Source of the DNA: a virus
Virus record (IMG/VR): IMGVR_UViG_3300021168_000018
Reading direction: 5' to 3' (one strand)
Length of the DNA: 64,000 nt
Below the pieces are notes generated by a model. That model was not told where the DNA came from, searched no databases, and saw nothing but the letters and a program-made list of their open reading frames with translations. The position numbers and the translations under genes are program-made. Of this stretch, positions 30,659-44,369 are shown in pieces (the first letter of the stretch is position 1; every line of letters begins with the position of its first letter).

Positions 30659-31005
30659 CAGAACACTTTCAAAATGTTAAACTGTTTTAGACCACGTATC
30701 GTTTCCAAAAGACTCTTTCCTTGTTCATGTGCTTTGTAGCCTAGCTCATAAGCTAGTATAGCGATTAGATACACGTCTTCCGTGACCGTTGCTACTTCAG
30801 GCTCACGTTCTGTCTGGCTTCTCACGAATGAGGGGTCGTCCACATTGGGACGCTTTAATTTCTGGTTAACCAGTTTCTCGTTACGTGGATTTTCCGGGCA
30901 AGTAGCTTCGTGTCTCGCCAACCCATGAGCGTTCTTACACAGCTTCCCACAGAATCTACATTGTCTGTCTATATCTTGAATTCTCATTGTCAATTTTCTT
31001 TTCAT
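30658..31005 (-). CDS. C2H2-like zinc-finger protein
   Basis: CRFCGKLCKNAHGLARHEATC. Confidence 0.5.
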   Translation of the reverse strand: MKRKLTMRIQDIDRQCRFCGKLCKNAHGLARHEATCPENPRNEKLVNQKLKRPNVDDPSFVRSQTEREPEVATVTEDVYLIAILAYELGYKAHEQGKSLLETIRGLKQFNILKVF

Positions 31006-31343
31006 GATTTCTCCTCCAAGTATTCTCTCAGCTTTTCTCCGTGCTTGCAGCCTACACTTTCACGTGCGATAGCGACCAGATTCAGCCCGTGAATCATGGC
31101 GTCCTGGCAGTTACAGATGTAGGTGCTTTTCGTGGTAGAAAAATTCTGTGACGATGCTGAGGATGTTACTGAAATAACACGCGTCTCAGTCAAGATTTGG
31201 ACGTAGTAGCTTCGGCCTGTGTCACCGCTGGTGACCCTGTACACGTCCACGTGGAACCATTCCGGCAATTCTCGCTGGTGATTGCCTTCCGGACTATGGA
31301 TTGTGAGTGGAGCACACTTTTCATATCGCCAAAAGTTAGGCAT
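31002..31343 (-). CDS. SWIM zinc-finger protein
   Basis: CNC...CKH. Confidence 0.55.
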   Translation of the reverse strand: MPNFWRYEKCAPLTIHSPEGNHQRELPEWFHVDVYRVTSGDTGRSYYVQILTETRVISVTSSASSQNFSTTKSTYICNCQDAMIHGLNLVAIARESVGCKHGEKLREYLEEKS

Positions 31344-31530
31344 TCTTTATCACTCCTACTAGGAGGTCCCCACGTTTGACTATATACGCGGTATGGGGTG
31401 GATTGCAGTAGCAGACTCTGTGCAATACATCTGAAAGTGCGGACCTTAGAGCGGTCGTAGATATCTTGAATACTGTCTGCTTGTAATCCTGCACTTTGTA
31501 CTCTGGAACATTTTTCAGGTTGATTGTCAT
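31336..31530 (-). CDS. Hypothetical protein
   Basis: ATG at 31530 overlaps the upstream TGA. Confidence 0.4.
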   Translation of the reverse strand: MTINLKNVPEYKVQDYKQTVFKISTTALRSALSDVLHRVCYCNPPHTAYIVKRGDLLVGVIKNA

Positions 31531-31718
31531 CAGTAGTCCTTTCCAAAGCGCCATCTGAGTTCCTCTTCGATGGCTGTGATTGTTTTCGTGTAGGACTGAT
31601 TGGCCTTCACCTTCTTCAGTTTTCCAACGAGCCCTATCATTTCTTTCTGGCCTGTATATTTCTTTGCCGTGTCTTCCAGCACGTTGCACACTTCCACGAC
31701 TGCTTTCTGATTAATCAC
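31530..31718 (-). CDS. Hypothetical protein
   Basis: RBS GGAGG; coupled. Confidence 0.45.
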   Translation of the reverse strand: MINQKAVVEVCNVLEDTAKKYTGQKEMIGLVGKLKKVKANQSYTKTITAIEEELRWRFGKDY

Positions 31719-32001
31719 ATCGGCCTCCTAACTCCTCGTATTTCGCTATCAGCGCGTCGCCATAGATAGCTTTGCGCGCTTCTCGACTCGCCGTTGCGTT
31801 GAACGGTTTGTTCATTTGGAATCCGGACTCTGCTGACACGACATAGATGCCCTTGCCTATCCAGCGAGCGCTGAGGACATCTATGTGCGGACAGTTGACC
31901 AGTTCTATCATCTGACCGATGGAAAACTGGCCGAGCGCGGGGATGATTGGGTACTGCTCACCAGTCGGTTTGATTATGAGCGCCATGCTTCTCTCCTCCA
32001 T
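31711..32001 (-). CDS. Hypothetical protein (DUF3846-like)
   Basis: ALIIKPTGE...FNATAS...IYGDALI. Confidence 0.45.
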   Translation of the reverse strand: MEERSMALIIKPTGEQYPIIPALGQFSIGQMIELVNCPHIDVLSARWIGKGIYVVSAESGFQMNKPFNATASREARKAIYGDALIAKYEELGGRCD

Positions 32002-32283
32002 CTATCTAGGCTGGCTGCCAGCATTGTAAGGATTACTACGATTAGCGTCGTCATGTTTCTTTATCTCCCTTTCTTGCCAGTCCAATATCACGCGCTCCAT
32101 AGAGAGCGGGCAAATTGGATGGTTTTGATTGTAGGTTTCCCCATGGAGCATTGATGGCCTATTGCATCGCTCGCAGAGTATGCCTTTCTTCAAGTGGAAT
32201 TCCCTATAGGCATACTTGACGAAGTAGATGAACGCGGCCAGACAGCAGACCAAGATTAGAAACGAGGCTATCTGGTCTACCAT
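32002..32283 (-). CDS. Small membrane protein with Zn ribbon
   Basis: N-terminal hydrophobic helix; CERC...HPIC. Confidence 0.45.
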   Translation of the reverse strand: MVDQIASFLILVCCLAAFIYFVKYAYREFHLKKGILCERCNRPSMLHGETYNQNHPICPLSMERVILDWQEREIKKHDDANRSNPYNAGSQPR

Positions 32284-32504
32284 CAGCGCACGTTCGCAGA
32301 GTGATAGCGTTCTCTGACCGGCTTGTTGGCACGGATTTCACCAGAGATATTGAGCGTGTGGTGGAGTAGACTGGCGTGAGCGTAGGCTTTGTCGAACACG
32401 TCACCGACCGCTTCGCCAATGACGTGTATCTCCACGGCGTTGTTGTCCATCTTGAAAACGTGTCCACAGCCACAGACTATTTTCATGTTTATTGTTGGTT
32501 CCAT
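32283..32504 (-). CDS. Hypothetical protein
   Basis: Coupled ORF. Confidence 0.4.
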   Translation of the reverse strand: MEPTINMKIVCGCGHVFKMDNNAVEIHVIGEAVGDVFDKAYAHASLLHHTLNISGEIRANKPVRERYHSANVR

Positions 32505-33079
32505 TATTTCGCCTCCTGTAACAATTCGATTAGTTTATCTGCCATCTGTTCCCACGCCGCCGACCGCGCCGCCGACTCCGCCGACCACGCCGCCGACCGC
32601 GCCGCCGACCGCGCCGCCGACCGCGCCGCCGACCGCGCCGCCTCTATAGAAATAGGTAATCCGGCAGCCATGTCTTTCACGATTTGCAGCGCACTGGAAC
32701 AACCTTTCCTCACTTCTTCTGTCCCATATTTCGTCAGACTGTTTTCTACTGTCCAAGCTAGAAATTTCCAGCCGACTAGAGACAGGTCCTTTCCTGGCTG
32801 GATTGCGGACAGGAAACGTTCCGGCCATTCTTGTGCTTTGCCATTGCTCAAGCCTTCAAAAATGGCATCTTCGATATGAGCCAGCATCTGTGGAATTCCC
32901 AGCTCAGTTTCGTAACGCTCATGCTCGTAGGCTTCCAGCGTGCAACCTATCGCACAGCCCTTCCCATCTTCCCAGCCGACGCCACGAATCAACTCATCGG
33001 CGATTCTATGAGAAGCTACGCGAGCCAGATACTTGTCCTTGATTTCCTGCTTGCCGTGATATGCTAACATTGTCATCAC
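32504..33079 (-). CDS. Phage hypothetical protein with AARS tandem repeats
   Basis: GCAIGC, FEGL, WPERFL, then (AARS)n. Confidence 0.65.
   Translation of the reverse strand: MMTMLAYHGKQEIKDKYLARVASHRIADELIRGVGWEDGKGCAIGCTLEAYEHERYETELGIPQMLAHIEDAIFEGLSNGKAQEWPERFLSAIQPGKDLSLVGWKFLAWTVENSLTKYGTEEVRKGCSSALQIVKDMAAGLPISIEAARSAARSAARSAARSAAWSAESAARSAAWEQMADKLIELLQEAK
32557..32642. repeat. 12-bp coding tandem repeat (GCCGCCGACCGC)n encoding AARS/AAWS
   Basis: About seven near-identical units, one shortened to 9 bp. Confidence 0.85.
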
Positions 33080-33318
33080 TCACCTTCTTTCTTCTGCGCG
33101 TTGGCAGATACTGTCGTGAATTTGTACCACTCGTTTTCCAACATCTCCATGACCTTAGCCTTGCATTCTGGGCATAAGAGGCAGACGAAATAATTCCCAT
33201 CTGGGGTGCCAGCACTTGACAGTTTCAGCCTCGCCCATGTGATTGGGACTGTAGATGCCGTGTGTTGACGCTTGCACGGCCCTTCACACTGGAGTTCAAA
33301 CGTTTTCTTAATCGCCAT
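33076..33318 (-). CDS. Small Cys-containing hypothetical protein
   Basis: RBS GGAGGTG; coupled. Confidence 0.45.
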   Translation of the reverse strand: MAIKKTFELQCEGPCKRQHTASTVPITWARLKLSSAGTPDGNYFVCLLCPECKAKVMEMLENEWYKFTTVSANAQKKEGE

Positions 33319-33580
33319 CTCAGTTCACCTCCGGCTGGAGTTGCTGGATGCCGATATCACGGAGTGTGAGCTCGACTTCGATTTCAATGTACTCGTCGAT
33401 GCTGACGTCCTCGCTCGTACTGAGCCAGACCAAGTCTAGGTAATCCATTTCCTTGAGGCGCTTGCAGACGCTGATAGTTTTATCCATGTCACTCTCCCTC
33501 TCCGACTAGAATTAGCCACGCGATAAGAGCCACTACAGAAACGACCGCGATGAACGAAACCATTATGACTAGAGGCATGG

Positions 33581-35062
33581 TCAGTTCACCGCCTTGCTGA
33601 TAGTGGCCTTCCCATTCCCGTTCGGCTTGGGAGTTGGAGGGACTTTATTCTCCGTCATGAAGTCGGCAGGCACGGCGTTTTCGTGCCCGTGTTCTAGTGA
33701 GAGTTGGAGCATTTTGTTGACGTCGTCATCGGTGCAATTTGCGACGTGGATGCGGTTGAGGCCCGTTTTATCCGGCGACAATATGAACATGTCGCCCTTG
33801 CCTAGCAGGTTCTCTGCTCCACGCTGGCCTAGGATGGTCTTGCTGTTCACGGCGTCTGGCATTCTGAACGCGGCGCGACCGAGGAAGTTGACCTTGATTT
33901 TGCCAGACACGACATCGACCGACGGACGCTGCGTGCAAGTGATGACGCAGATTCCAGCGGCGCGGGCCATCTGACTGATAGAGGCCATCCGTTTTGTGAA
34001 CTCCTTTTTCTCCTCCAGCACGATTTCAGCCATTTCGTCGATGACCAGCACGATGTAGTACCATTTCTCGGCCATCTTCTTGGCTGCCTGCTCTTCCAGC
34101 ATCTTGCGAACGTTGCCTTCCTTGGCTTTAAGCGCGGCTTGCTTGAGTTCGTCCGCTTCTTTCTGGAGGCGGTCGTTGAGTTCCTTGATGTTGTTGACCT
34201 TCAGCACATGAAGGTTAGCGGTGCGCCGTTTCATTTCCTGGATAAGGGTTTCCATGACGTTGAGGCAGCCCCAGACCGTGAACTCTGGCGGCATCAGCAT
34301 GTGAGGCAGCCCCTTGAACCTGAACAGCTCCACTTGCTTCGGGTCCACGAACGCGAACCGGAGTTCGCTTGGAGTGCGGATTTCTGCCAGACTGGTAATG
34401 ATTTGCTTGAGCAGTGTAGATTTGCCGGTCCCGGTAGAACCGCCGACCAGCATGTGAGGGAATGTAGCCAAGTCTTCCACGTATGGAGCGCCTTCCGACG
34501 TGAGCCCGAAGTTGAGCGGGAGCGCCATGTCGTAGCGATGCGCCAGAGTGTTCTTGAAGCAGGACTCATGCGTGACAACGAGCCTTTCTCCGTTCGGCAT
34601 GGAAACGCCGACCACTGGCTTGCCGGGGATGCGGCGGATTGTGACCGTCTCGACCGACAATGCCAGCGCGAGGTCCTCATTGAGGGACTTGAGCCTCTTG
34701 ACTCGCGTGAACCGGTCAGGCGTGAATAGGTACTCCGTCACGACCGGCCCTTTGACTATGCCGGTCACTTGACCCGGACAGTCGAAGTTTTTGCAGGACT
34801 CCGTTATCATCTTGACGATTTCTTCCTGCTTCTTGCCGACCGGGTTGAGTTCGCGTGGGAACCGTTTCTTGCCGTCTGGCTTTTTCTGGCCTTCCAACTT
34901 GAACGGTGACGTCGTGCTGCCACAGAGCGGACAGTGACGGCGCTTTGTGAGCAGGTCCTTGTTAACGATGCGGCAATTGCGACAGATTTTGTACTCGCTG
35001 ATTTTGTACATCATTTCTTCAGACAGTTTTTGCATGACTTGTCTCCATTTGTTCTCGCTCAC
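33581..35062 (-). CDS. FtsK/SpoIIIE-family DNA translocase lacking membrane anchor and gamma domain
   Basis: Alpha domain GPVVTEY...EDLALAL...IPGK, GGSTGTGKS, VIDEMAE, ARAAGI...TQRPS; N-terminal CxxC...CxxC. Confidence 0.88.
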   Translation of the reverse strand: MSENKWRQVMQKLSEEMMYKISEYKICRNCRIVNKDLLTKRRHCPLCGSTTSPFKLEGQKKPDGKKRFPRELNPVGKKQEEIVKMITESCKNFDCPGQVTGIVKGPVVTEYLFTPDRFTRVKRLKSLNEDLALALSVETVTIRRIPGKPVVGVSMPNGERLVVTHESCFKNTLAHRYDMALPLNFGLTSEGAPYVEDLATFPHMLVGGSTGTGKSTLLKQIITSLAEIRTPSELRFAFVDPKQVELFRFKGLPHMLMPPEFTVWGCLNVMETLIQEMKRRTANLHVLKVNNIKELNDRLQKEADELKQAALKAKEGNVRKMLEEQAAKKMAEKWYYIVLVIDEMAEIVLEEKKEFTKRMASISQMARAAGICVITCTQRPSVDVVSGKIKVNFLGRAAFRMPDAVNSKTILGQRGAENLLGKGDMFILSPDKTGLNRIHVANCTDDDVNKMLQLSLEHGHENAVPADFMTENKVPPTPKPNGNGKATISKAVN

Positions 35063-35526
35063 CTGCTAGGTAGAGGAGATTGTGGTGGATTCTAGGCTCC
35101 ACCTTGCCTTTGATTGGCCTCAAGCTATCTTGCTGACCGGGACTTCCACCCGGCCTTGAATAGTCGTGATGGCGATTTCCAGTGCGCGACGGCGCTTCTT
35201 GCCTTCCGTATTCTTGAGGATTTTCTCCAGATACGGAATGGCCTCCCGTTTCGTCATGGACTTCGCCTTGATTTTCTTACCTTGTTCGTTACGCATTTTG
35301 TGTTGCTCCTTTCCCGCTTTGGGGAATTCGATTGCTGGTATTGTTGGCCGAACTGATGTGACGCTGTGTCGCGTGACGGAACCCACGCATTTCGTCTCGC
35401 AGGAAACGCTGGATTTCGTCGGACTTTTCCTTGCTGAGATACTGCCCTACTGTTTGACCGTTGACAGTTACTGTGACTGCTTGCATGTGATGCTCCCTTC
35501 CTTTTTAGGTCCTGGGGGACCGATTT

Positions 35527-35976
35527 CTACCGCGTGGCCTTTTGAATCCGGCGTTCTGTTTCCCTGAGTTGCTTCTTGGTCCACGTCCGTGCTGCCGGAT
35601 GCAGCAACCAGAACACCGTTCTACCATCAACGTCGAGTGATGAAAAATATTCGAAATCAATATTCTTATCGGAGAGTGCATAACCAGACTCTCTGAATGT
35701 TTTCCTAGCTACAGCGCCACAAACTAGAATTATGCTTGGATTCAAGCGTGTCAGGTTTTCATGGAGCCATTTTGCGTCCGGCTTTCCGTGGTGGTTGGCA
35801 GACGTGACTAGTTCGCGGCAGCAATTCGTCACGACCAGCCGATGCGCGTTTTCTGGCCCTACGAATTTGTAGAGTCGCTTGCCAGATTTGTTATGCGGGT
35901 TGATTTTGAAATATCGTGGAGCGCGGCCTTCCCTGTCGCCCCACATTGTTTCGAGGACTGCGACGATGAAACTCAC
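35527..35976 (-). CDS. Minimal uracil-DNA-glycosylase-fold protein
   Basis: VTNC, PSIILVCGAVA, LLHPAAR pattern. Confidence 0.45.
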   Translation of the reverse strand: MSFIVAVLETMWGDREGRAPRYFKINPHNKSGKRLYKFVGPENAHRLVVTNCCRELVTSANHHGKPDAKWLHENLTRLNPSIILVCGAVARKTFRESGYALSDKNIDFEYFSSLDVDGRTVFWLLHPAARTWTKKQLRETERRIQKATR

Positions 35977-36353
35977 TTCGGTGCCTCAGTTTCGTCTGCC
36001 ACGTCCGGCATCATTTCTTCCTCTTCAATTTGTTCCTGTTCATGAGTTGGACACAGCAAGTCGTACGGTCCGGGGTCTTGGCTGGCCATGATTGTCCACG
36101 TGTGATTTCCGCGAGTGCAGAAATGCTTGTAGACGTTTGGGTAGAGTTGCTGGTCCATTTGCTCTACCGCTGTCTGCATGATTGTTCGATACGCAGCGAT
36201 TTCGCGGTCCTTACGAACTTGCAAAACCGCACGCAGCATTTTCAAGTCGTCTATCGACATGTCCAATTCGATTTTCATACCCGCTCCTTTACTGCGATGA
36301 TATGCTTGCACTTTCCACGGTGGAATATCCAGTGACGGCAAGAACATTGCCAT
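35973..36353 (-). CDS. Hypothetical protein
   Basis: Coupled ORF. Confidence 0.4.
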   Translation of the reverse strand: MAMFLPSLDIPPWKVQAYHRSKGAGMKIELDMSIDDLKMLRAVLQVRKDREIAAYRTIMQTAVEQMDQQLYPNVYKHFCTRGNHTWTIMASQDPGPYDLLCPTHEQEQIEEEEMMPDVADETEAPK

Positions 36354-36469
36354 TGGCCTTGTGAAGTCCGGCGCACGATATAGTGTTTGCGTGCATCGGA
36401 TTGTGAATTGACGGTGAACCTGCGAACGTGGCCTTGCGTTTCCCGTTTCAGGATTGCGATTGGAGCCAT
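36275..36469 (-). CDS. SWIM zinc-finger protein
   Basis: YIV...WQCSC...CKHI. Confidence 0.6.
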   Translation of the reverse strand: MAPIAILKRETQGHVRRFTVNSQSDARKHYIVRRTSQGQWQCSCRHWIFHRGKCKHIIAVKERV

Positions 36470-36673
36470 TTAGCTCACCGTCCCAAACGTTGTGTAGGTC
36501 ACTGGCCTATCATGCTTTGTTACTGGACGCCAGCGACCTAATATGCCGCCCGAATATTTCAACTCGGATTTCTTTTCGGCCACGGCATGTCTATCGCACC
36601 AATCCCAGTGTGTGCCATTACCGAATTGGCGTTGCGTTGCTGGCCTATTGCATCCTGGTTGATTGCATTTCAT
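36470..36673 (-). CDS. Small hypothetical protein
   Basis: RBS AAGGAAG; CNQPGC...WCDRH. Confidence 0.45.
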   Translation of the reverse strand: MKCNQPGCNRPATQRQFGNGTHWDWCDRHAVAEKKSELKYSGGILGRWRPVTKHDRPVTYTTFGTVS

Positions 36674-37363
36674 GTTACCACTTCCTTACTCCGCCATTTC
36701 AGCGGCGAGGATGTTCACTGTCATTGTAGACACGTGACGTTGTCATTCAGGCGTAAACTCAACCTCGCCCGCCATCGTTGTGAACATCCACGTCGCTGGA
36801 GAAGAAACTTTCCTAGAAACTCATGCGGTATCCGACGCCTGATGCCTTGCGGCATATTCCTAGTCCCGTGTAAGGGGACGTGCGGTATGTCGGGCCTGAT
36901 TCCTTCTCAAGCGAGATGAAATTGTTTGTTCGAAACTCCCATGTCAGCTTGATTTGCGAAACCTTGCGATACATTTAACGTCCGTTCAGTCGGACGGTGG
37001 TAGTTCTTTTACGGGTCCACCACGCCTAAACCTAGGAACACCTGACTGGTAGCGACCACAGAGGGAATTACGCTGACCGAGGGTCCTACACGTTCAATCA
37101 ACCATCCTCTCGATTACCATGCGGCATTGCATGGCTGAATTCTTAAAATCCGATGGAATATTGAACGACTGCCTTGCCTGAGGACGCTGAGCGGCCAACC
37201 AGATTTCCGGCTCGCTACATTGTTCTTACCGTGTGTCGAGTTTTTACGTGCCACTAGCACTGGACTCTAGCACTAAGACCCCGAGCGTGTCCGCGATGGG
37301 TCGTAGAACTTTGTAGGTTGCCTACTTTTCTGGATTGCTGGCTGTAACCCTTAGCGGGGGAAA

Positions 37364-37657
37364 CTAGTTCACCCGCATCTCGCCATTGCGCCACCGGAGT
37401 TTCATGTGGAAACTCCGATGACATTTATCATGGGCGAGAGTTTTGTTGCCCTTGCTGTCGTTGGAGTGGTCCAGGTCCTTGTGATGGATTGTGATAGTCC
37501 TTGAAATTGGACTGCCCTGCCCATCGCCGTCCTTGGCATAACTCTCATACCCTAGCAAGGGTTCCTTGCAGAAGTAACAGTGTTTGTCTCGCAGGAAAAA
37601 ATGGAGGAGTTCCCGACACTTCCGCAATTCTTGGCGTGTAGATTTTCGCATTGACAT
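37364..37657 (-). CDS. Small HNH endonuclease
   Basis: CYFC, TIHHKDLDHSNDSKGNKTLAHDKCHRSFH. Confidence 0.8.
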   Translation of the reverse strand: MSMRKSTRQELRKCRELLHFFLRDKHCYFCKEPLLGYESYAKDGDGQGSPISRTITIHHKDLDHSNDSKGNKTLAHDKCHRSFHMKLRWRNGEMRVN

Positions 37658-38098
37658 TGTACCCTCGTGGGGGTAAGTTTACCCCGCAAAAGGTTACAGC
37701 CACGTCTCTCGTGTTAGGCCAGCGTTCTCAGCTTAATCCCCAATAGGTTGCACGGTGTTGCTATACCTTATGCCTCCCCGCTACTCGTCAACTCCTAGAG
37801 CCTCACGGCCACACTTTTGCGGGTTACGCTACCTTATATAGTGCCTTGCAGCGCGGTAGCTTACAGCGCGGTACTAGCGCACGTCTCCCAGTACATTGTA
37901 CTGGCACCTACTAACTTTCAGCTTTTCGTCCCTAGTGGCCTTAATGCCTTAACCTTGTTTGGGGTCCTGCCCATAGCATTTTGTGTGCGCTACAGGGGTC
38001 AGACTGGCGTACCAGTTTCTGCCTATCAGTGGCCTATCCCCACTAGTGCCGTGTCTCACGACGCGCACGTTTGTCGGACTTTTTGCTGGCCTAGTTAT

Positions 38099-38134
38099 TT
38101 TTCAAAGAACAGCGGTTTGCGGTAGTGCAAACCG
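38099..38134 (-). promoter_or_regulatory. boxB-like hairpin followed by rrn-type boxA (TGTTCTTTGAAAA)
   Basis: 8-bp stem CGGTTTGC/GCAAACCG, then a sequence resembling the TTCTTTGAAAA boxA of many bacterial rRNA leaders. Confidence 0.55.
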
Positions 38135-38154
38135 TACTACTAAACAACACAAAC

Positions 38155-38183
38155 ATTGTACCCTAAAACTAGGCAGTACGCAA
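38155..38183 (-). promoter_or_regulatory. Sigma70-type promoter TTGCGT-N17-TACAAT
   Basis: Near-consensus hexamers with exact 17-bp spacer, pointing into the ncRNA candidate. Confidence 0.7.
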
Positions 38184-38186
38184 GGA

Positions 38187-38498
38187 CTATTTTGACCTTT
38201 GTTGGCGCTCTTTCCACGAGGTCAAAATCCTGCGAGCCGTTTTCGCCTCCGTTTTTAGGTAGGGTAAAACGGCTTCCAGCAAACGGACCGCTTTTCGGCC
38301 CTGAATGCGGTACGACAGCCGCTCTGGGTCGCCGTTCGAATACCACGACCCACCGAATTCTTTTTTGAGCAATTTTGGCAGATTGCCCTTCGTCCTGAGG
38401 CGCATCTGGAAATTGCCTGTTTTCAGGACGTGGAATTTCATACGCTCGTCCAGCGCTCCAGCCAGATATGCCAGATCGCGCTCTTTCCTGAATTTCAT
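38187..38498 (-). CDS. Single-motif LAGLIDADG-like protein, catalytic motif degenerate
   Basis: LAYLAGALDERM (R/M where D/E-G is usual), FGG, and a LLEAVLPYL helix. Confidence 0.65.
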   Translation of the reverse strand: MKFRKERDLAYLAGALDERMKFHVLKTGNFQMRLRTKGNLPKLLKKEFGGSWYSNGDPERLSYRIQGRKAVRLLEAVLPYLKTEAKTARRILTSWKERQQRSK

Positions 38499-39484
38499 AC
38501 TTCCCTCGTCATGAACTCAATGCGCCGTTTTTGGTTGTAGCCTTCCGCATGACGCACGAGCTGCCACGCTCTTTCCCGTCCCAAAGAGTTGATATCTTCG
38601 CCGTTAGGGATATTGGCAATTTTGATGTGCGGTATGATGCCCTTGAAACGGTCGGCGATTTCTACCGTGTCTCTGCGTGCGTCGCCATCTAATGCGATGA
38701 CCAGTTCTTGGACCCACTTTTCATACCTGAGGACATGGTCACGCTGGACATCTGACAGAGACTTGCCTAGGATGCCCATTATCAATGTTCTACCATGTCC
38801 CAGTATTTCCAGCGTGAGCACATTGATTGCAGATTCCACCAGCACAATGACGTTCGGCTTGCGTGTGCCGCCGATGCAATAGACCAAGTCTGATTTCTTA
38901 CTGTACTTGGGATTCCAAAACTTTAGCTCCCGGTCCTTGAATCGCCGGCCTTGCCAGTAGACCACGTCGCCTTCGTCATTGAAAATTGGGAAGATGATAT
39001 ATCCCCAATACTTCCCGCTCGTACAATATCCTATCTTCGCTGTGTCCACTATCCGCTTTGGGATATCTCGGCGCTCTAGATAAGCATAGATATTTTCTCT
39101 GTCTTGCTTCGGCAGTTCACTAACGAAATTGAACTCTTCTGGCAGCTCCACCTCTGCATCTTCGTCTTGACGTATTGTTTCTGGGATGACGTGCTCGAAT
39201 CCGCGAGTATTGAACCACGCCCTGATTCTATACTCTGTGACCCCGCCATGTCCCACATACCATCTACAGCTTGAGTGGAAACAGCACCCGACGCCCTTTT
39301 CTGTATTCCATGCGAATTTCTTTTCGTGGTCGCCACACGCGGGGCAGTCTGCCTTGAATCCCTCTCTGGTCTCGAACACTTGGCTGAAGAACCCTGCTAT
39401 GTCACTCATAGTCTTTCCCGTCTCCACAGCAGAATCGCCATAGGATATTTCGCTATAGCTAGAGAAAGCAGTTCCCATCTCCAT
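38495..39484 (-). CDS. DNA primase (Zn-binding + TOPRIM)
   Basis: CPAC...CFHSSC, YWQGR, LVES, LDGD, GEDIN. Confidence 0.85.
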   Translation of the reverse strand: MEMGTAFSSYSEISYGDSAVETGKTMSDIAGFFSQVFETREGFKADCPACGDHEKKFAWNTEKGVGCCFHSSCRWYVGHGGVTEYRIRAWFNTRGFEHVIPETIRQDEDAEVELPEEFNFVSELPKQDRENIYAYLERRDIPKRIVDTAKIGYCTSGKYWGYIIFPIFNDEGDVVYWQGRRFKDRELKFWNPKYSKKSDLVYCIGGTRKPNVIVLVESAINVLTLEILGHGRTLIMGILGKSLSDVQRDHVLRYEKWVQELVIALDGDARRDTVEIADRFKGIIPHIKIANIPNGEDINSLGRERAWQLVRHAEGYNQKRRIEFMTREV

Positions 39485-39557
39485 GTTGTGTCTGGAGGCT
39501 TATCCCAATCATAGTCATGCACCAAATCACACTGAGTCCATTTGTAAATCCAGTCTA

Positions 39558-40916
39558 CTACCTGTTTCTCCATTTTTCCTTCTCCGCTATGAAATTCCCA
39601 AACTTTTCCCAGACCCTGAACGTGTTGCGGTCTATGTTTATCTTGATGGTTTTCCCCATCATCACGTCTCTAGCAGCGACCATCAAGAGTCTCGCCTGTT
39701 GAGGCTTGAGCTTGGCTTCTGCTTCTGTCTGACACAGTGCTATCATGAAATCCAGCGTCCAGAACTGGGAAATATCTTCCGCTATGTCTTCCGGTCCAAC
39801 ACGCTCCTTGTTAAGAGCGCCGCGATTAGTCTGCGACGCTGTCCACACTGGGATATCCCGCTCCACTGCTAGACCGCGCAAGTCCATGCAAACTTGACCG
39901 ATGCTGAGACGCTGCTCTTCGAAGCGCTCGTTTGGCTTGAATACACGGATGTAGTCCACGAACAGGATATCTATTTCTACACCTGATTGCTTCAGACGCT
40001 CCAGCCAAGACTCAATGTCACTAACCCGACCGCGATTCGTAGGCCATTGCTTAATGAACAGTCTGCCCTTCATCTGGCCGTGAGCCTGGACCATGCGACG
40101 CTGTGCTTGACGCAGTTTCTTCATCAGGTCTGATTTCTCATCGCTGACCTTGGCGTACTGCGTCAATCTCCAAGTTGGGATGGCTGTCATCATGGAATCT
40201 ATGCGCTTGCGATATTTCTTGCCCGACAGTTCCCCGGTCGCTATCGCTACGTTTTTGTTTTGCCACATTGCTCCGGCCGCGAATCTGGCGATGAGAGTAG
40301 ATTTTCCGCCTTTACCTTTTCCAAGAATGACGCCAAGTTCTCCGGCTCCAAGTCCCCCTTCCATACAGTCGTCAAGTGTGGGGCAGTAGTGAGTCCCGAT
40401 AATCCCATATCTATCTTCGAGCCATCTTCCAGGATTAGTCGCGTCTTTCCAATATTCAATACCAAGGTCGAGCTCTGCACCGAGTCCCTTGAGCGAATCG
40501 AATCGCTGTATAGCTCTAACGAAATTTTTACTGTTGACATCTTTCTCTGCCTCCACTAATGCTTTGCGAAACTTTTGCTCCTTGGCGAATCCTACTGCCT
40601 GATGAAGGACCACCTGCCTGTCTTTGAGGTCTTCGTCGTAGAGCGCTTTGATTTCTCGCCGGTATCCAGGCCAGACTTCTGATTTGGATTTTCCGAGATA
40701 GCCTTTGACGATGGCAAGGAGAGTCGGCCTAGAGAGTATAACTTCGGAACGATTGTGTTTTTCATAGACCTCCTTTGTGAGACGCGCGATGTCCACATGC
40801 AACGGGTTCGTAAAATACGACGGCTCGATAATCGTGTACGCCGTTTGTGGTGAACGGACGTAGAGTGCGAGCAGTTTCTTTTGGAACGCATCCCCGAATT
40901 CGAATTCTGATGGCAA
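39558..40916 (-). CDS. DnaB-like replicative helicase
   Basis: GKGKGGKS, FVDY, WTASQTNR, IAEDISQ. Confidence 0.88.
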   Translation of the reverse strand: MPSEFEFGDAFQKKLLALYVRSPQTAYTIIEPSYFTNPLHVDIARLTKEVYEKHNRSEVILSRPTLLAIVKGYLGKSKSEVWPGYRREIKALYDEDLKDRQVVLHQAVGFAKEQKFRKALVEAEKDVNSKNFVRAIQRFDSLKGLGAELDLGIEYWKDATNPGRWLEDRYGIIGTHYCPTLDDCMEGGLGAGELGVILGKGKGGKSTLIARFAAGAMWQNKNVAIATGELSGKKYRKRIDSMMTAIPTWRLTQYAKVSDEKSDLMKKLRQAQRRMVQAHGQMKGRLFIKQWPTNRGRVSDIESWLERLKQSGVEIDILFVDYIRVFKPNERFEEQRLSIGQVCMDLRGLAVERDIPVWTASQTNRGALNKERVGPEDIAEDISQFWTLDFMIALCQTEAEAKLKPQQARLLMVAARDVMMGKTIKINIDRNTFRVWEKFGNFIAEKEKWRNR

Positions 40917-41210
40917 TTATTTTCCTCGTGTGATACTCGGCTGCTTCATGCGTTCTGAATGGTCTACTGCAAACTTCTTGAACTCCTCGATGCGTTTGTC
41001 CAACAAGTCGAAGTGGAAATCGTTGCAGCCATCCTCCAAAGATATTTGCCTGTAGAATTCTAAGACTCTGACCGCCAGCCTGTCTCTTGCCCTGAATAGA
41101 ATCAGAGGCTCGTCGTCCGGGACCACGTCCCCGTTTGATGTCTTGACAATCAGACACCTGCCAAACTTCTCGTCGTACTCGGCATGAAATTTGCTATCTA
41201 TCTTTCTCAT
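40917..41210 (-). CDS. Hypothetical protein
   Basis: RBS AAGGGG, 19 nt after motif copy 3. Confidence 0.55.
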   Translation of the reverse strand: MRKIDSKFHAEYDEKFGRCLIVKTSNGDVVPDDEPLILFRARDRLAVRVLEFYRQISLEDGCNDFHFDLLDKRIEEFKKFAVDHSERMKQPSITRGK

Positions 41211-41224
41211 GGAATTCCCCCTTG

Positions 41225-41980
41225 CTATAATGAAACGCTATTTGTTTGAAAACTGCGCTTGAGTGCTTTTTTGGCAACATGCCAGATATGCCTATGCCGG
41301 TTTAAGAACCTGGAGCACTTGCAGTAGTCTTCGAACCAGCGATTCCAAAAACTCTTCTTGTGCTTCTTGGAGTAGACAGCCAGGAACCACGGGCTCAGCT
41401 CCTTGGCGAAGGCGTAGATTGCTTCGTCAGTTTTTATTTTCTGTCCTTCCACGACTCGCTTGATTATGCCGCCCGAATCTCGTATCGAAGAGTAGATGTC
41501 CAAGTCTGACCAGCCATCGAGTTCCTTCTTCCAGTCGATATCTAGGATGTAGTGCTTTCGTTCCTTGCGGTAGACCCAGAGAAACTTTTCGATAGTGCTG
41601 TCTTTGGAAAACCAAGTCGGGTGAGGCATCCATTCCACGTTCTTAAATTTTCCATAGCGACACATGACTTTGATGTAGAGAGCGGGGTCGATGTTCTGCT
41701 GGATAAGTTTTTCTGCCAGCAAAATAAATTTCAATTTTACTTTCCAGCCTGCTTTGGTTTTGTAGACGTCGTAGTTGAAATTCCTATACCTTAGATTTCT
41801 CGAACGAGCCATCTTGTTGAACGCGATACGGATAATTTTCTCAGCGATCCTTGTTGCACGATCCAACTCTAAACGCGGAAACCGTTTTTTACTTTTGAAG
41901 TTTCTCTTCCGTCCCATTTTCTCTCCACAGGAAAAATATCTTTTTCTTTTCGGGAGGACAAGCGTCAGCGCAGTCCTCAA
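41225..41980 (-). CDS. Basic hypothetical protein (probable start 41917) with KKRFPRL
   Basis: Coding-strand ORF; its last codons encode motif copy 3. Confidence 0.6.
   Translation of the reverse strand: MRTALTLVLPKRKRYFSCGEKMGRKRNFKSKKRFPRLELDRATRIAEKIIRIAFNKMARSRNLRYRNFNYDVYKTKAGWKVKLKFILLAEKLIQQNIDPALYIKVMCRYGKFKNVEWMPHPTWFSKDSTIEKFLWVYRKERKHYILDIDWKKELDGWSDLDIYSSIRDSGGIIKRVVEGQKIKTDEAIYAFAKELSPWFLAVYSKKHKKSFWNRWFEDYCKCSRFLNRHRHIWHVAKKALKRSFQTNSVSL
41230..41242 (-). promoter_or_regulatory. Conserved upstream motif AATAGCGTTTCAT, copy 3
   Basis: Exact 13-mer, 19 nt before the ATG at 41210. Confidence 0.7.
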
Positions 41981-41999
41981 GGCGAGCGAAGCGAGCCTT
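41979..41999 (+). other. GCGAAGC mini-hairpin with tandem sheared G-A pairs (AAGGC-GA-GC-GAA-GC-GA-GCCTT)
   Basis: Symmetric stem around a GAA loop; next to an AT tract and short direct repeats. Confidence 0.5.
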
Positions 42000-42283
42000 T
42001 CACTACTGAAAAATTTTTTGAAATGAACTGTGCTCCCTATTGTTCCTGTTACATGGCGAGTAGTTAGCTACAAGTGCTCCCTACGGTCGCACTTTCCAAG
42101 ACCTTAAGATAGTTGCTACCTATGCTGCCTAGGATCATAATGCACCTATAGGTCCTTAAGGTCCATATTCGCCATGTAACGCTGAGCTGTCCCATAGTGG
42201 ACATACTGGCCGTGTAACGCACATATGGGCCATACTGTCCCACCGCGCCTGCGAGGGTATGGATGGGCTTGACTTTCTCCATT

Positions 42284-42721
42284 TTATTTTTGCCCAATTC
42301 TCAGCTCCTGGAAACCGGAATTTCTCGCAGCAACATCGTCGAGAATTTTCATGTCATTTTTGATTCTATCGAACTGCCGGAACATGGGAGAAAGTTGGCG
42401 CAAGATTTCGAACTCTTGCAACTCGCCAATTAGAGTCTTGGAAATGTGGTCGGCGACGGCGTCTTGATTGACCAAAACTTTCAAATTTCCTTCGCTGTCT
42501 TTGATAACAGTTTGGTCAACTAAACTAAGCGAATTTCCTTTCGCTACCCTGATAAATCCTGCCTCTTCGCACTCTTTGAAACAGCGCAAAATTATCTCTT
42601 TCATCTCCCAGATTGTCTTGAACTGACCGCCAGTATTTTCCATGTGATTACTTGCCTCCTGTGGACTGTTTTGCCATGCCGTCACTTGTTTCATTTGACA
42701 CAAATTTCTTCTTCGGACCAC
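42284..42721 (-). CDS. Hypothetical protein (probable start at MENTGG)
   Basis: GGAGG RBS inside the 5' part of the ORF. Confidence 0.45.
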   Translation of the reverse strand: MVRRRNLCQMKQVTAWQNSPQEASNHMENTGGQFKTIWEMKEIILRCFKECEEAGFIRVAKGNSLSLVDQTVIKDSEGNLKVLVNQDAVADHISKTLIGELQEFEILRQLSPMFRQFDRIKNDMKILDDVAARNSGFQELRIGQK

Positions 42722-42863
42722 GTTGAATTACGGCTATGAGTTTGAACTCCGCAAGGCAATTGTGACACTCAATTTGTGTCACCTGATGGCCTTCAATTTG
42801 GACCTGTTTCTTGACGTCAATTAACGTGAACGGATATTTACAGAACAAGCAAATGTTGAACAC
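42648..42863 (-). CDS. Small Zn-ribbon protein
   Basis: CLFC...CHNC. Confidence 0.45.
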   Translation of the reverse strand: MFNICLFCKYPFTLIDVKKQVQIEGHQVTQIECHNCLAEFKLIAVIQRGPKKKFVSNETSDGMAKQSTGGK

Positions 42864-42866
42864 TTT

Positions 42867-44369
42867 TTACCTTTCTATGATTGAAATTTTTGCGATTTTT
42901 TCATTGATGTAGTGCTTCAAACGCGCCATGGAATGCTTCATCAAATACTCGTTGTGAGTGTCAATGAAATCACTGATATACACAACATTTCCGGTTCTAG
43001 GGTTCTTTCTCAAGACACGGCCCATGCGCTGTAAAATCAACTCCCATCCAAGTCCTGCCGCCGAGTTTATCCATGCGTCCACCCCGCCTGAAATGTCCAT
43101 GCCCGTATCGAATATCGGGGATGCTAGGAGTACTCCAAGTTTCCCATTTTCAAATCTCTTTAGAACCTTTTTTCTGATAAGCAATGGCGTGCTACCTGAT
43201 AGAAATTCTACTGGCAAATCCATATTGCTCTCTAACAGTTTTTTCAATTTCAAGCCATGAGAAATCCTTGCGACCGTGACCAGAGTTTTGTAGTCCTTGT
43301 TGAGATATCGCAGCACTTCCCTAACGACCAACTCGTTGCGCTTCTTGTTCTTCACGATGCCGAGACTGTAGGCGGCTGCGAACTTTGCTTTCTTCGGTAT
43401 TTCTTCAGTGTGGACTTCTACGAAACGGATAACAGGTTTGGCGCTGCGACCCAAGTCTACGAGTTCCTTGTTTCTGACCTCGGCAATTATCGGACCTGTC
43501 ATACCGACGTAACTTAGCATTTTCTTTTTGTTTTTTCTATCGATTGTTCCGGACAGACTGAAACGCATCGGCGCTTCATTTCTATTTACAATTTTGGAGC
43601 ATTGAGTAGCACGGTTCACATGAGTTTCGTCGATAAATAGGATATCACACTTTTCTTGAAAGCGTTCGAAATCAGACTCTTGAAGTAAATTAGATGCGGT
43701 CTGCACAGTCGCAACGACAATTCCTGGTTTTTGCGGAATGCGCTTCTTACCTCCTCCAACCATAAAAATTCGTACATCGTTTGGAAGATGCTTACGGAAT
43801 CTATCAGCCGTTTGCTGTGCAAGTCCAGCACGATGGATAAGGAAGAGCACACGAGGCATTCGTTTGAGTTGTCTGTGAAATTCAGAGACAATAGCGCAAG
43901 CGCATTCGGTCTTGCCTGTATTAGTAGATGCATGTATGATTCCTTTGCCTTTTCGCAAAGCCTTGTTTACGATTTCAACTTGCTCAGCGCGATTCTCGAT
44001 ACTATCCTCAAACTGAAATCTCTTGATTGGTTTGAAAACTGGAAGTTGCTGACGATTGTCTTTGACTGAATATTTCACGCCTTTCTTGTCCAAAAACTTT
44101 ATCACCATATCTAGAAGTCCGCTGGCAAACGTGTCCCCGCGTCTCTCATAGAACTTGATGTACTGTACAGATTCCTTCAACTGTTCAATCTTCTTATCGC
44201 GCTTTTCGTCGTTCTTGATATCACTGAAATAGCCCACTCTTTTCAGTGCTGCTCGCTGCCTCCACCAATTGTTCTTGTCCTTGACTCGCAGGCATCTAAA
44301 CATCTTCTTCAACTGGCGCTCTGGGCCAGAGAATGACGTGCGCGCCGGACGTACAGTGAGTTCAATCAT
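42867..44369 (-). CDS. Superfamily 2 helicase (UvsW-like)
   Basis: STNTGKT, DETH, SGT, DTGMD, QRMGRVLR. Confidence 0.88.
   Translation of the reverse strand: MIELTVRPARTSFSGPERQLKKMFRCLRVKDKNNWWRQRAALKRVGYFSDIKNDEKRDKKIEQLKESVQYIKFYERRGDTFASGLLDMVIKFLDKKGVKYSVKDNRQQLPVFKPIKRFQFEDSIENRAEQVEIVNKALRKGKGIIHASTNTGKTECACAIVSEFHRQLKRMPRVLFLIHRAGLAQQTADRFRKHLPNDVRIFMVGGGKKRIPQKPGIVVATVQTASNLLQESDFERFQEKCDILFIDETHVNRATQCSKIVNRNEAPMRFSLSGTIDRKNKKKMLSYVGMTGPIIAEVRNKELVDLGRSAKPVIRFVEVHTEEIPKKAKFAAAYSLGIVKNKKRNELVVREVLRYLNKDYKTLVTVARISHGLKLKKLLESNMDLPVEFLSGSTPLLIRKKVLKRFENGKLGVLLASPIFDTGMDISGGVDAWINSAAGLGWELILQRMGRVLRKNPRTGNVVYISDFIDTHNEYLMKHSMARLKHYINEKIAKISIIER

What the first reader, a model, noticed from the sequence alone, without database searches (positions are those of the whole stretch)
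36830..38150. Large, apparently unclassified structured RNA with its own promoter and rRNA-style antitermination leader
About 1 kb of non-coding sequence in an otherwise gene-dense genome. On the minus strand: TTGCGT-N17-TACAAT, then an 8-bp hairpin and boxA (TGTTCTTTGAAAA), the layout of rRNA leaders. Hairpins include GUC-GUGA-GAC (38053-62), GCC-GUGA-GGC (37800-09), AUGCC-GCAA-GGCAU (36842-55), AUC-GCAA-GGU (36961-70), ACUGG-UACG-CCAGU (38003-16), CCAGUAC-AAU-GUACUGG (37888-904), CCAUGC/GCAUGG (37117-34) and CGUCCG/CGGACG (36979-96). Nested end-to-end pairings (UCCGAC 38073-78 with GUCGGA 36831-36; GUGCG near 38065-69 with CGCAC near 36880-84) would close the whole molecule. I could not find group I P7, group II domain V, tmRNA or tRNA signatures. 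It may be a GOLLD/ROOL/HEARO-class RNA or a new class.
Basis: partly seen in the sequence, partly recalled or inferred. Interest (0 to 1): 0.88.

Follow-up and report, generated by a model that had tools for sequence, protein, structure and literature searches.

The report
New large structured phage RNA family
A group of soil phages carries, next to their DNA-replication genes, a previously undescribed highly structured non-coding RNA of about 1 kb that is transcribed like a miniature ribosomal-RNA operon and accumulates in soil RNA samples; its function is unknown.

Summary
On the minus strand, about 38148 to 36690 encodes a structured non-coding RNA. About 16 soil-phage or metagenome loci carry a homologue in the same gene order: DnaB helicase, primase, small inactive LAGLIDADG protein, RNA, FtsK-like gene. 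Every locus with a readable 5' end has a promoter, a co-varying hairpin and a boxA (rRNA-type leader). Compensatory base changes support at least six helices: the leader hairpin, a long-range helix closing the 5' domain, the stem that holds an ORF, H1, the inner 3' stem-loop, and a 3'-terminal helix.

The 97-aa HNH ORF (37657-37364) sits inside a stem whose two arms are about 20 nt each. In relatives that stem carries other small ORFs or none. Four soil metatranscriptomes contain 100%-identical contigs on the two RNA halves only. They contain none on the ORF loop and almost none on 13 kb of flanking genes. This suggests a stable two-piece RNA from which the ORF stem is cut out, as happens with rRNA intervening sequences.

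No Rfam family matches (GOLLD, ROOL, HEARO, OLE, introns, RNase P), even at E<=10. Function is unknown. I score it as a new RNA class of high interest.

The parts
38187..38498 (-). Small (103 aa) single-domain LAGLIDADG-fold protein. It is translationally coupled to primase, and its stop codon lies 3 nt before the -35 box of the RNA promoter. Candidate partner of the RNA or of its gene.
   Evidence: The gene sits directly upstream of the RNA in every locus where the upstream sequence is available. The profile hits I-MsoI/I-CreI. The AF2 model has pLDDT 89.8. Foldseek gives TM 0.64-0.73 to I-CreI. The motif reads LAGxxDxRG, with Arg where I-CreI has the catalytic Asp (the I-CreI D20 role is from established knowledge).
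38155..38183 (-). Sigma-70-type promoter: TTGCGT, 17 nt, TACAAT.
   Evidence: A TTGC-type -35 and a TAnnAT -10 at the same spacing are visible in most homologues whose upstream sequence I read; L002 has no clear -10 and L086, L088 and L090 were not resolved. The strict consensus scan does not call it, because the -35 matches only 3 of 6. The furthest RNA contig starts at 38137.
38113..38134 (-). Leader hairpin (boxB-like), 8 bp, loop ACUACC.
   Evidence: Every homologue with a readable 5' end has a 5-8 bp hairpin of different sequence ending 1-5 nt before boxA.
38099..38111 (-). boxA UGUUCUUUGAAAA.
   Evidence: The UCUUUGA.AAA core is invariant in 11 aligned homologues and present in 4 more. 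It is unique in the window.
37715..38093 (-). 5' domain. It is closed by the long-range helix P-A (UAGGCCAGC 38093-38085 with GCUGGCCUA 37723-37715). Inside it lies helix P-B (GUCC 38079-76 with GGAC 37931-28).
   Evidence: The strand just 3' of boxA pairs with a strand 150-400 nt downstream in all 11 sequences tested. The cognate pairing is the best in 8 of 11, and 0 of 20000 permutations reach the observed mean (the 3' windows were partly chosen by eye). The MFE fold finds the same helices. P-B is seen.
37702..37714 (-). Conserved linker ACACGAGAGACGU between P-A and the ORF stem.
   Evidence: Conserved in the window, L067, L072, L064 and L071.
37340..37701 (-). ORF-hosting stem-loop. The arms are 37701-37682 and 37359-37340. 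Inside are a small hairpin plus Shine-Dalgarno platform (37687-37662) and the HNH ORF.
   Evidence: Inverted repeat I1, 27-nt arms, 89% complementary. Cognate stems of about 17-25 bp with different sequences occur in L067, L072, L071, L081 and L002. ORF-less L064 has GGUAGAAAC-cuccc-GUUUCUACC at the same site. RNA contigs stop at 37701-37708 and resume at 37339-37343 in three runs (X3-X5); X6's contigs stop short of the stem.
37364..37657 (-). 97-aa HNH endonuclease ORF, a variable cargo of the stem-loop.
   Evidence: PHROG 1271, E = 1.3e-4. Protein homologues at E 2e-35 to 3e-6. The same slot holds an HNH in L067 and L072, unrelated 85-aa and 88-aa ORFs in L081 and L071, a 32-aa ORF in L002, and nothing in L064 and L086.
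36997..37339 (-). Central domain, only partly resolved. It includes the hairpin GGUcAGCG...CGCUACC (37078-37048) and the conserved ACCAGUCAGG (37050-37041).
   Evidence: Conserved blocks and several co-varying hairpins were read. No complete consensus structure was obtained.
36979..36996 (-). Hairpin H1, CGUCCG/CGGACG.
   Evidence: 5 pairs, 4 with compensatory changes, none broken in 8 sequences.
36799..36908 (-). 3' stem-loop core. It comprises helix Hx (36908-36900 with 36807-36799), GG/CC pairs, hairpin Hy (CCGAC 36893-89 with GUCGG 36836-32, carrying a variable insert) and a nearly invariant 24-nt strand AUACCGCAUGAGUUUCUAGGAAAG (36831-36808).
   Evidence: Model R1 matches 8 distinct sequences at 55-116 bits. 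91-93% of cells are paired, against 31-49% in slid controls. 11-12 of 29 pairs are compensatory. No shuffle of 500 reaches the observed paired fraction or covariation score.
36700..36798 (-). 3'-terminal helix P-Z: CAGCGACGUGGAUGUUCAC (36798-36780) with GUGAACAUCCUCGCCGCUG (36718-36700). It has conserved A/C and U/U mismatches and a variable loop.
   Evidence: Inverted repeat I2. Found in 7 of 8 sequences. 91% paired, 8 of 18 pairs compensatory, 0 of 2000 shuffles reach it, slid controls 36-51%.
36689..36710 (-). Conserved small hairpin CCGCU-loop-GGCGG. It overlaps the 3' strand of P-Z and lies directly before the Shine-Dalgarno and the ATG (36673) of the next ORF.
   Evidence: Conserved with a variable loop in the window, L064, L067, L068, L069, L086 and L090.

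Best explanation
This is the gene for a new family of large structured non-coding RNA of soil phages. The core is about 0.65-1.1 kb.

Shown:
- The RNA is conserved in about 16 loci in one fixed gene order.
- It has its own conserved promoter.
- It starts with a co-varying hairpin followed by boxA.
- At least six of its helices are maintained by compensatory changes.
- In four soil metatranscriptomes it is recovered as two pieces, while the stem-loop carrying the HNH ORF is not recovered and the neighbouring genes almost not at all.

Inferred mechanism:
1. Host RNA polymerase starts at the promoter.
2. The hairpin-boxA leader recruits NusB/NusE and the other rRNA antitermination factors. This makes the polymerase resistant to Rho on a long untranslated transcript, and it holds the 5' end near the RNA exit channel so that long-range helices form. 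An example is P-A, which starts right after boxA in the position of boxC.
3. The stem around the cargo ORF, whose arms are about 20 nt, is cut by a double-strand-specific RNase (RNase III type). This releases a short-lived ORF-bearing loop with its own hairpin and Shine-Dalgarno. The two stable RNA halves are not re-joined.
4. The mature RNA then works in trans, most likely as a ribonucleoprotein or scaffold. The catalytically dead LAGLIDADG protein encoded just upstream is the likely partner, and the role is probably in phage DNA replication or genome handling.

The last step is the weakest: I give about 0.25 to the partner and to the process.
For: Conservation and gene order.

Leader, promoter and boxA. 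boxA is unique in the window. The hairpin-then-boxA order is that of rrn leaders, and rrn elongation complexes chaperone long-range pairing and formation of RNase III sites (PMC8632103).

Covariation:
- 3' stem-loop.
- H1.
- P-Z.
- P-A.
- ORF stem.

G-U pairs occur on the minus-sense strand only.

Expression: four RNA runs give 100%-identical contigs on 37701-38137 and 36814-37343 only. Nothing lies on 37344-37700. Across the rest of 31000-44000 there is nothing apart from two low-depth fragments (151 nt at 38956-39106 in X3; 180 nt at 31370-31549 in X5) and short imperfect matches near 32600. No joint across the stem was found.

Cargo ORFs vary or are absent.

LAGLIDADG fold with Arg at the catalytic position.

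No intrinsic terminator follows the RNA.
Against: - Function has not been tested, and the host is unknown.
- The RNA evidence comes from assembled contigs. These cannot give strand, exact ends or abundance. The four runs are soil samples of 2018 that may belong to one campaign.
- The missing ORF loop could reflect low coverage rather than cleavage.
- One contig ends at 36814, inside the invariant loop.
- MFE z-scores are weak.
- The central domain was not resolved.
- Most loci were fetched through the LAGLIDADG protein, so its co-occurrence with the RNA is partly ascertainment. Only two loci found through the RNA could be checked for the protein; both have it.
- L002 and L088 share the leader and the ORF slot, but model R1 does not detect their 3' domain.
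- Several alternative pairings suggest that the RNA may also act in cis.
Confidence: 0.62

Rival explanations
1. It is a giant structured 5' leader (cis-regulatory RNA) of the downstream operon (small ORFs, UDG-like gene, FtsK-like gene). boxA would serve read-through into those genes. The alternative 3' pairings would act as an attenuator or a translational switch.
For: No intrinsic terminator follows the RNA. The 3' strand of P-Z overlaps a conserved hairpin that abuts the Shine-Dalgarno of the next ORF, giving mutually exclusive pairings. In L064 the FtsK-like gene follows directly.
Against: The RNA contigs cover the RNA but not the downstream genes in four runs. 0.7-1.1 kb with several independently closed domains is far beyond any known leader. 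The genes between the RNA and the FtsK-like gene differ between phages.
Confidence: 0.13
2. It is the transcript of a replication origin: a structured primer or R-loop RNA, in the manner of ColE1 RNA II or the T4 origin transcripts. The LAGLIDADG-fold protein would be the origin-binding factor.
For: The RNA lies immediately after helicase, primase and a DNA-binding-fold protein in every member. It has its own promoter.
Against: There are no iterons and no AT-rich unwinding tract. Invariant single strands and many co-varying helices point to a folded RNA rather than a DNA hybrid. The RNA accumulates as a stable species.
Confidence: 0.1
3. It is a degenerate or unusual group I or group II intron, or an intron remnant, carrying a homing endonuclease ORF, with the upstream LAGLIDADG protein as a former maturase.
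For: An ORF sitting in a peripheral loop, an HNH gene and an I-CreI-like protein are all typical intron companions.
Against: No Rfam intron model matches at E<=10, with or without the ORF. The RNA has its own promoter and boxA. There are no interrupted exons. RNA contigs cover the supposed intron, not its flanks, and no splice joint was found. The cargo ORFs are mostly not endonucleases.
Confidence: 0.03
4. It is a divergent member of a known large RNA family (GOLLD, ROOL, OLE, HEARO/omega RNA, raiA).
For: It resembles them in size, in phage association and in having many helices.
Against: cmscan against 4227 Rfam families returns nothing, either at gathering scores or at E<=10. This holds for the window and for the ORF-less L064. 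The HNH ORF is 97 aa and optional, so it is not an IscB.
Confidence: 0.03
5. It is a non-functional spacer or decayed genes with chance hairpins.
For: The MFE z-scores are only -1.3 and -1.8.
Against: Conservation, covariation and expression all argue against it.
Confidence: 0.01

Closest known systems
GOLLD, ROOL and OLE: large 'ornate' bacterial and phage RNAs (PMC12286853; PMC5737381)
   Same: A non-coding RNA of 0.6-1 kb with many helices, no ORF required, encoded by phages (as GOLLD and ROOL often are), with unknown function.
   Different: No sequence or structure match to their Rfam models. This RNA also has a boxA leader, a slot for cargo ORFs, a two-piece mature form and a fixed place in the replication module. 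There are no tRNA genes nearby. Oligomerisation was not tested.
Bacterial rRNA operon leader (boxB-boxA-boxC) and RNase III processing stems (PMC8632103)
   Same: A hairpin followed by boxA. A strand right after boxA pairs with a distant downstream strand. Long duplexes separate the stable RNA products.
   Different: It is phage-encoded, the products are not rRNA (no Rfam rRNA hit), no boxC was recognised, and factor binding was not tested.
Intervening sequences of 23S rRNA that carry ORFs (Coxiella IVS, PMC4990558) and ORF- or endonuclease-bearing insertions in CPR rRNA genes (PMC11270868)
   Same: An ORF sits inside a long stem inserted into a structured RNA gene. The stem-loop is absent from the mature RNA and the halves are not re-joined.
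   Different: The host RNA is a phage non-coding RNA. The slot has a conserved hairpin plus Shine-Dalgarno and carries different ORFs in different phages. Cleavage is inferred from contig ends only.
HEARO / IscB omega RNA
   Same: A structured RNA next to an HNH-containing ORF.
   Different: The ORF is a 97-aa stand-alone HNH placed inside the RNA. It is optional and has no RuvC domain. The Rfam HEARO model does not match.
Group I introns with homing-endonuclease ORFs in peripheral loops, and LAGLIDADG maturases
   Same: An ORF tolerated in a loop of a folded RNA, and an I-CreI-like protein encoded beside it that has lost its catalytic Asp.
   Different: There are no exons, no splicing joint and no intron-model match. 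The RNA has its own promoter, and the LAGLIDADG gene lies outside the RNA.

Membership tests
GOLLD / ROOL / OLE / HEARO / raiA (Rfam) | Match to the family covariance model | tested here: not met
   cmscan of the whole window at gathering scores gives 0 hits. Window 36300-38700 and ORF-less L064 6000-7150 at E<=10 give 0 hits.
HEARO / omega RNA | Association with an IscB-type ORF (RuvC plus HNH, about 400 aa or more) | tested here: not met
   The ORF is 97 aa and HNH only. It is absent in L064 and L086, and replaced by unrelated ORFs in L081 and L071.
Group I / group II intron | Match to the intron covariance models (core P3-P8/P7, or domain V) | tested here: not met
   No Rfam hit at E<=10.
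Group I / group II intron | Interrupts a gene, and the flanks are ligated in RNA | tested here: not met
   The upstream gene ends with a stop codon before the promoter. No joints are seen in RNA contigs, and contigs lie on the element, not on its flanks. Contigs can miss rare forms.
tRNA / tmRNA / RNase P | Detected by ARAGORN or by Rfam models | tested here: not met
rRNA-type (rrn nut-like) antitermination leader | A hairpin (boxB) 5' of a linear boxA of consensus type | tested here: met
   Hairpin 38134-38113, then UGUUCUUUGAAAA 38111-38099. The layout is conserved, with co-varying hairpins, in 15 homologues. The order is as described for rrn in PMC8632103.
rRNA-type (rrn nut-like) antitermination leader | NusB/NusE binding and Rho resistance | not testable with these tools
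   Needs biochemistry or genetics in the (unknown) host.
rRNA-type (rrn nut-like) antitermination leader | boxC element after boxA | tested here: inconclusive
   No conserved linear boxC was recognised. The strand after boxA instead forms the co-varying long-range helix P-A, which occupies the place of the boxC-containing processing stem.
RNase III-excised intervening sequence (IVS-like) | A long, near-perfect stem flanking the insert | tested here: met
   27-nt arms, 89% complementary. Cognate stems of about 17-25 bp in 6 members.
RNase III-excised intervening sequence (IVS-like) | The insert is absent from mature RNA and the halves are not ligated | tested here: inconclusive
   Contigs of three RNA runs (X3-X5) end at 37701-37708 and restart at 37339-37343; X6's contigs stop short of the stem. 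No joints were found. Only contigs were available, not raw reads.
LAGLIDADG homing endonuclease (for the upstream 103-aa protein) | LAGLIDADG alpha-beta-beta-alpha-beta-beta-alpha fold | tested here: met
   Profile against PDB: I-MsoI E = 2e-6, I-CreI E = 4e-3. AF2 pLDDT 89.8. Foldseek to I-CreI E about 1e-5, TM 0.64-0.73.
LAGLIDADG homing endonuclease (for the upstream 103-aa protein) | Catalytic acidic residue at the end of the LAGLIDADG motif | tested here: not met
   The consensus is YLAGLFDGRG. Arg occupies the position in 9 of the 10 members and Lys in P0006. So it has the fold but is probably not an active nuclease.

The most novel reading that the evidence does not exclude
Phages have copied the logic of a ribosomal-RNA operon: a boxA antitermination leader, leader-trailer helices, and RNase III-type excision of spacers. 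They use it to make a two-piece ornate RNA that assembles with a domesticated, inactive LAGLIDADG protein into a new ribonucleoprotein acting in phage DNA replication or host takeover. The same RNA gene also serves as an exchangeable expression slot for small cargo genes.
Probability: 0.25. Interest if true: 0.92.

Novelty: categorically new. Interest (0 to 1): 0.86.

Why it matters
Very few large structured RNAs of unknown function are known in bacteria and phages (GOLLD, ROOL, OLE, raiA). Each has turned out to be structurally exceptional. This would add a new class with features not described together before:
- a phage non-coding RNA driven by an rRNA-type boxA leader;
- a mature form in two pieces;
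- a built-in stem-loop that carries interchangeable ORFs;
- a strictly linked, catalytically dead LAGLIDADG protein;
- a fixed place inside the replication module.

The RNA already has independent expression evidence from soil RNA. It also comes in a compact ORF-less natural version of about 0.65-0.9 kb from boxA to the conserved 3' block (L069, L064), which is suitable for cryo-EM and biochemistry. It offers a way to test how Nus-factor antitermination is used outside rRNA and lambdoid nut sites.

Tried and rejected
- blastn of the 1.5-kb region against 50,697 phage records: no match.
- Primase as a single query, and as an alignment, against IMG/VR: nothing, then only the two contigs already known.
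- The boxA pattern in IMG/VR gave 57 loci, of which only 2 contigs were real relatives (L049, the L002 contig already known, and the new L055).
- L003-L005 share only the HNH gene, in ordinary coding context.
- nhmmer and blastn barely align the RNA between subgroups.
- Global MAFFT alignments were poor.
- mafft-qinsi is not installed.
- RNAalifold on two sequences was noisy.
- The first covariance model was too long to calibrate.
- RNAalifold on the central domain found little.
- Model R1 does not find the 3' domain in L002 or L088. Its outer helix (columns 3-12) is weak and conflicts with the better supported P-Z.
- The 3'-block pattern was absent from 185,579 species genomes, so no host or prophage clue emerged.
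- No RNA run holds the ORF-less L064 version.
- I looked for a conserved partner for the invariant loop (for example UUCCUAG at about 37030 in the window). That candidate is not conserved, so I rejected it.
- There are no iterons.
- A literature search found no description of such an RNA. I could not check whether it is among the 8,495 unnamed candidates of PMC10690425.
Full report
**Context.** All long ORFs in the window run on the minus strand and look phage-like. Around the finding lie, in order:
- a DnaB-type helicase (40916-39558);
- a primase (39484-38495);
- a 103-aa ORF (38498-38187);
- a 1.5-kb stretch with a single 97-aa ORF;
- small ORFs;
- a UDG-like gene;
- an FtsK-like gene.

No whole genome is held for the window. 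The window's own small protein occurs on a contig of 104 kb.

**Observation.** The promoter-like TTGCGT-17-TACAAT, the 8-bp hairpin, boxA and the listed small hairpins are all present at the stated coordinates. boxA is the only exact or 1-mismatch match in 64 kb. It has PHROG HNH hits and protein homologues at E down to 2e-35. Folding energies of the two RNA halves are only 1.3 and 1.8 sd below shuffled controls. The hairpins alone would therefore not prove anything.

**Homologues.** DNA searches of isolated phages found nothing. I found relatives by four routes:
- through the HNH protein (L002);
- through the boxA pattern (L055/L064);
- through the small upstream protein;
- through a conserved 3' block, GGATACCGCATG..CTAGGAA.

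This gives about 16 distinct loci, all from soil metagenomes or IMG/VR phage contigs. All have the order helicase, primase, small protein, then a gap of 0.9-2 kb with few or no ORFs. Wherever the contig reaches far enough, the FtsK-like gene lies further downstream. The 3' block is absent from 185,579 prokaryote species genomes.

**Leader.** Most homologues whose upstream sequence I read show a TTGC-type -35 and a TAnnAT -10 at the same spacing; L002 has no clear -10 and L086, L088 and L090 were not resolved. Every homologue with a readable 5' end then has a 5-8 bp hairpin whose sequence differs between phages but stays complementary. One to five nt later comes (U/C)(G)(Y)UCUUUGA(A/C/U)AA. Hairpin before boxA is the rRNA-operon order, the reverse of lambda nut (PMC8632103).

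**Structure.**
1. The strand right after boxA pairs with a strand 150-400 nt downstream (P-A). Examples are the window UAGGCCAGC/GCUGGCCUA, L067 GGGUUAGC/GCUAACCC, L072 GGGUAGGC/GCCUACCC, L064 GGUUCCA/UGGAACC and L086 AGGGCUUCGGG/CCCGAAGUCCU. The cognate pairing is the best in 8 of 11 sequences, and no permutation of 20000 reaches the observed mean. One caveat applies: the 3' windows were partly set by my own reading.
2. A conserved linker follows, and then a stem with arms of about 20 nt.
3. Hairpin H1 has 4 of 5 pairs compensatory in 8 sequences.
4. The 3' stem-loop is modelled as R1, which matches 8 distinct sequences. 91-93% of cells are paired against 31-49% when partners are slid. 11-12 of 29 pairs are compensatory. 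No shuffle of 500 reaches the paired fraction or the covariation score. It encloses a nearly invariant 24-nt single strand, AUACCGCAUGAGUUUCUAGGAAAG.
5. A terminal helix, P-Z, has 91% of cells paired and 8 of 18 pairs compensatory. It carries conserved A/C and U/U mismatches and a loop of 5 to 166 nt.

The end-to-end closure is therefore not supported, although the idea of long-range closure is right for the 5' domain. I could not resolve the central domain.

**The ORF slot.** The HNH ORF lies inside the stem 37701-37682 / 37359-37340. The same site is used differently in relatives:
- L067 and L072 carry an HNH.
- L081 carries an unrelated 85-aa ORF.
- L071 carries an unrelated 88-aa ORF.
- L002 carries a 32-aa ORF.
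- L064 has a plain 9-bp hairpin, and L086 a short GC hairpin.

The stems differ in sequence but remain complementary. Just inside the 5' arm, a small hairpin followed by GGAGG or GAGGG precedes each ORF. The slot therefore looks like part of the RNA's design rather than a one-off endonuclease invasion.

**Expression.** Seven RNA libraries hold parts of the stretch. I laid four of them on 31000-44000. All four gave 100%-identical contigs only on 37701/37708-38104..38137 and on 36814..36931-37339..37343. Nothing lay on the ORF stem-loop. No joint spanned it. Nothing else lay on 13 kb of flanking genes, apart from two low-depth fragments (151 nt in primase, run X3; 180 nt at 31370-31549, run X5) and short imperfect matches near 32600 that run on into unrelated sequence. 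In three runs (X3-X5) the contig ends coincide with the base of the ORF stem, to within a few nt; X6's contigs stop short of it. The 5' end lies 11 nt from the predicted start. DNA contamination would cover the flanks as well. Contigs cannot give strand, exact ends or levels, and the runs may come from one sampling campaign.

**Known families.** Rfam 15 gives no match at gathering scores or at E<=10. This holds for the window and for an ORF-less homologue. There are no tRNA or tmRNA genes. Literature searches found the ornate RNAs GOLLD, ROOL and OLE, but nothing like this RNA.

**The upstream protein.** It is a 90-107 aa single LAGLIDADG domain related to I-CreI and I-MsoI. Arg or Lys stands where the catalytic Asp should be. 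It is likely a binding protein for the RNA or for the RNA gene, not a nuclease.

**Interpretation.** The best reading is a new class of large phage RNA made by an rRNA-operon-like unit. boxA-dependent antitermination and chaperoning, followed by excision of the ORF stem by a double-strand RNase, would leave two stable halves. The function is unknown. My best guess is a ribonucleoprotein with the LAGLIDADG protein acting in replication. The main rivals are a cis-acting giant leader and an origin transcript. The first is suggested by mutually exclusive pairings at the 3' end next to the Shine-Dalgarno of the next ORF, and by the lack of a terminator. The second is suggested by the location. Both are less consistent with the RNA data and with the many closed domains.

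Noticed in passing
window 36689-36798 (minus strand): There are three mutually exclusive pairings around invariant blocks. CAGCGAC can pair with the upstream UCGCU (36914-10) or with the downstream CGCUG (P-Z). The 3' strand of P-Z overlaps a conserved hairpin, CCGCU..GGCGG, that abuts the Shine-Dalgarno of the next ORF (ATG 36673). This is possible switch or attenuator logic.
   Followed up: partly
window 38085-38088 with 37919-37922, versus 37720-37723: CAGC of the P-A 5' strand has a second, nearer partner, GCUG. That partner also co-varies (L072 AGGC/GCCU). It may be a folding intermediate or an alternative state.
   Followed up: partly
L081:180-1303 compared with L069: This RNA gene is a mosaic. 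The 3' half, from about the ORF slot onward, is 98% identical to L069. The 5' half is different and carries another cargo ORF. This points to recombination inside the RNA gene.
   Followed up: partly
window 37100-37127 and 37041-37050, compared with 36808-36829 and 36893-36902: The central domain repeats motifs of the 3' domain: GCCGCAUGG..GAGAGGAUGG against ACCGCAUGAG..CUAGGAAAG, and ACCAGUCAGG against GAAUCAGGCC. This could be an internal duplication or the same tertiary motif used twice.
   Followed up: no
L002:3559-4318: In the distant relative L002, a SWIM zinc-finger ORF (146 aa) and the HNH ORF lie further 3' within or after the RNA region. A 32-aa Cys-rich ORF occupies the slot.
   Followed up: partly
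window 38113-38134 plus 38099-38111: The consensus scan scores the leader hairpin followed by the U-rich boxA as terminator-like. The leader could also act as an attenuator when Nus factors are absent.
   Followed up: no
window 32578-32639: Several RNA-run contigs from other, GC-rich organisms match about 35 nt here at 90-95% identity and then continue into unrelated sequence. This is a short conserved coding motif, not expression of the phage gene.
   Followed up: no
L088:3270-3340: L088 has the hairpin, AAGGAGG and AUG platform of the ORF slot, but model R1 detects no 3' domain. Like L002, it may represent a second subtype of the RNA.
   Followed up: no
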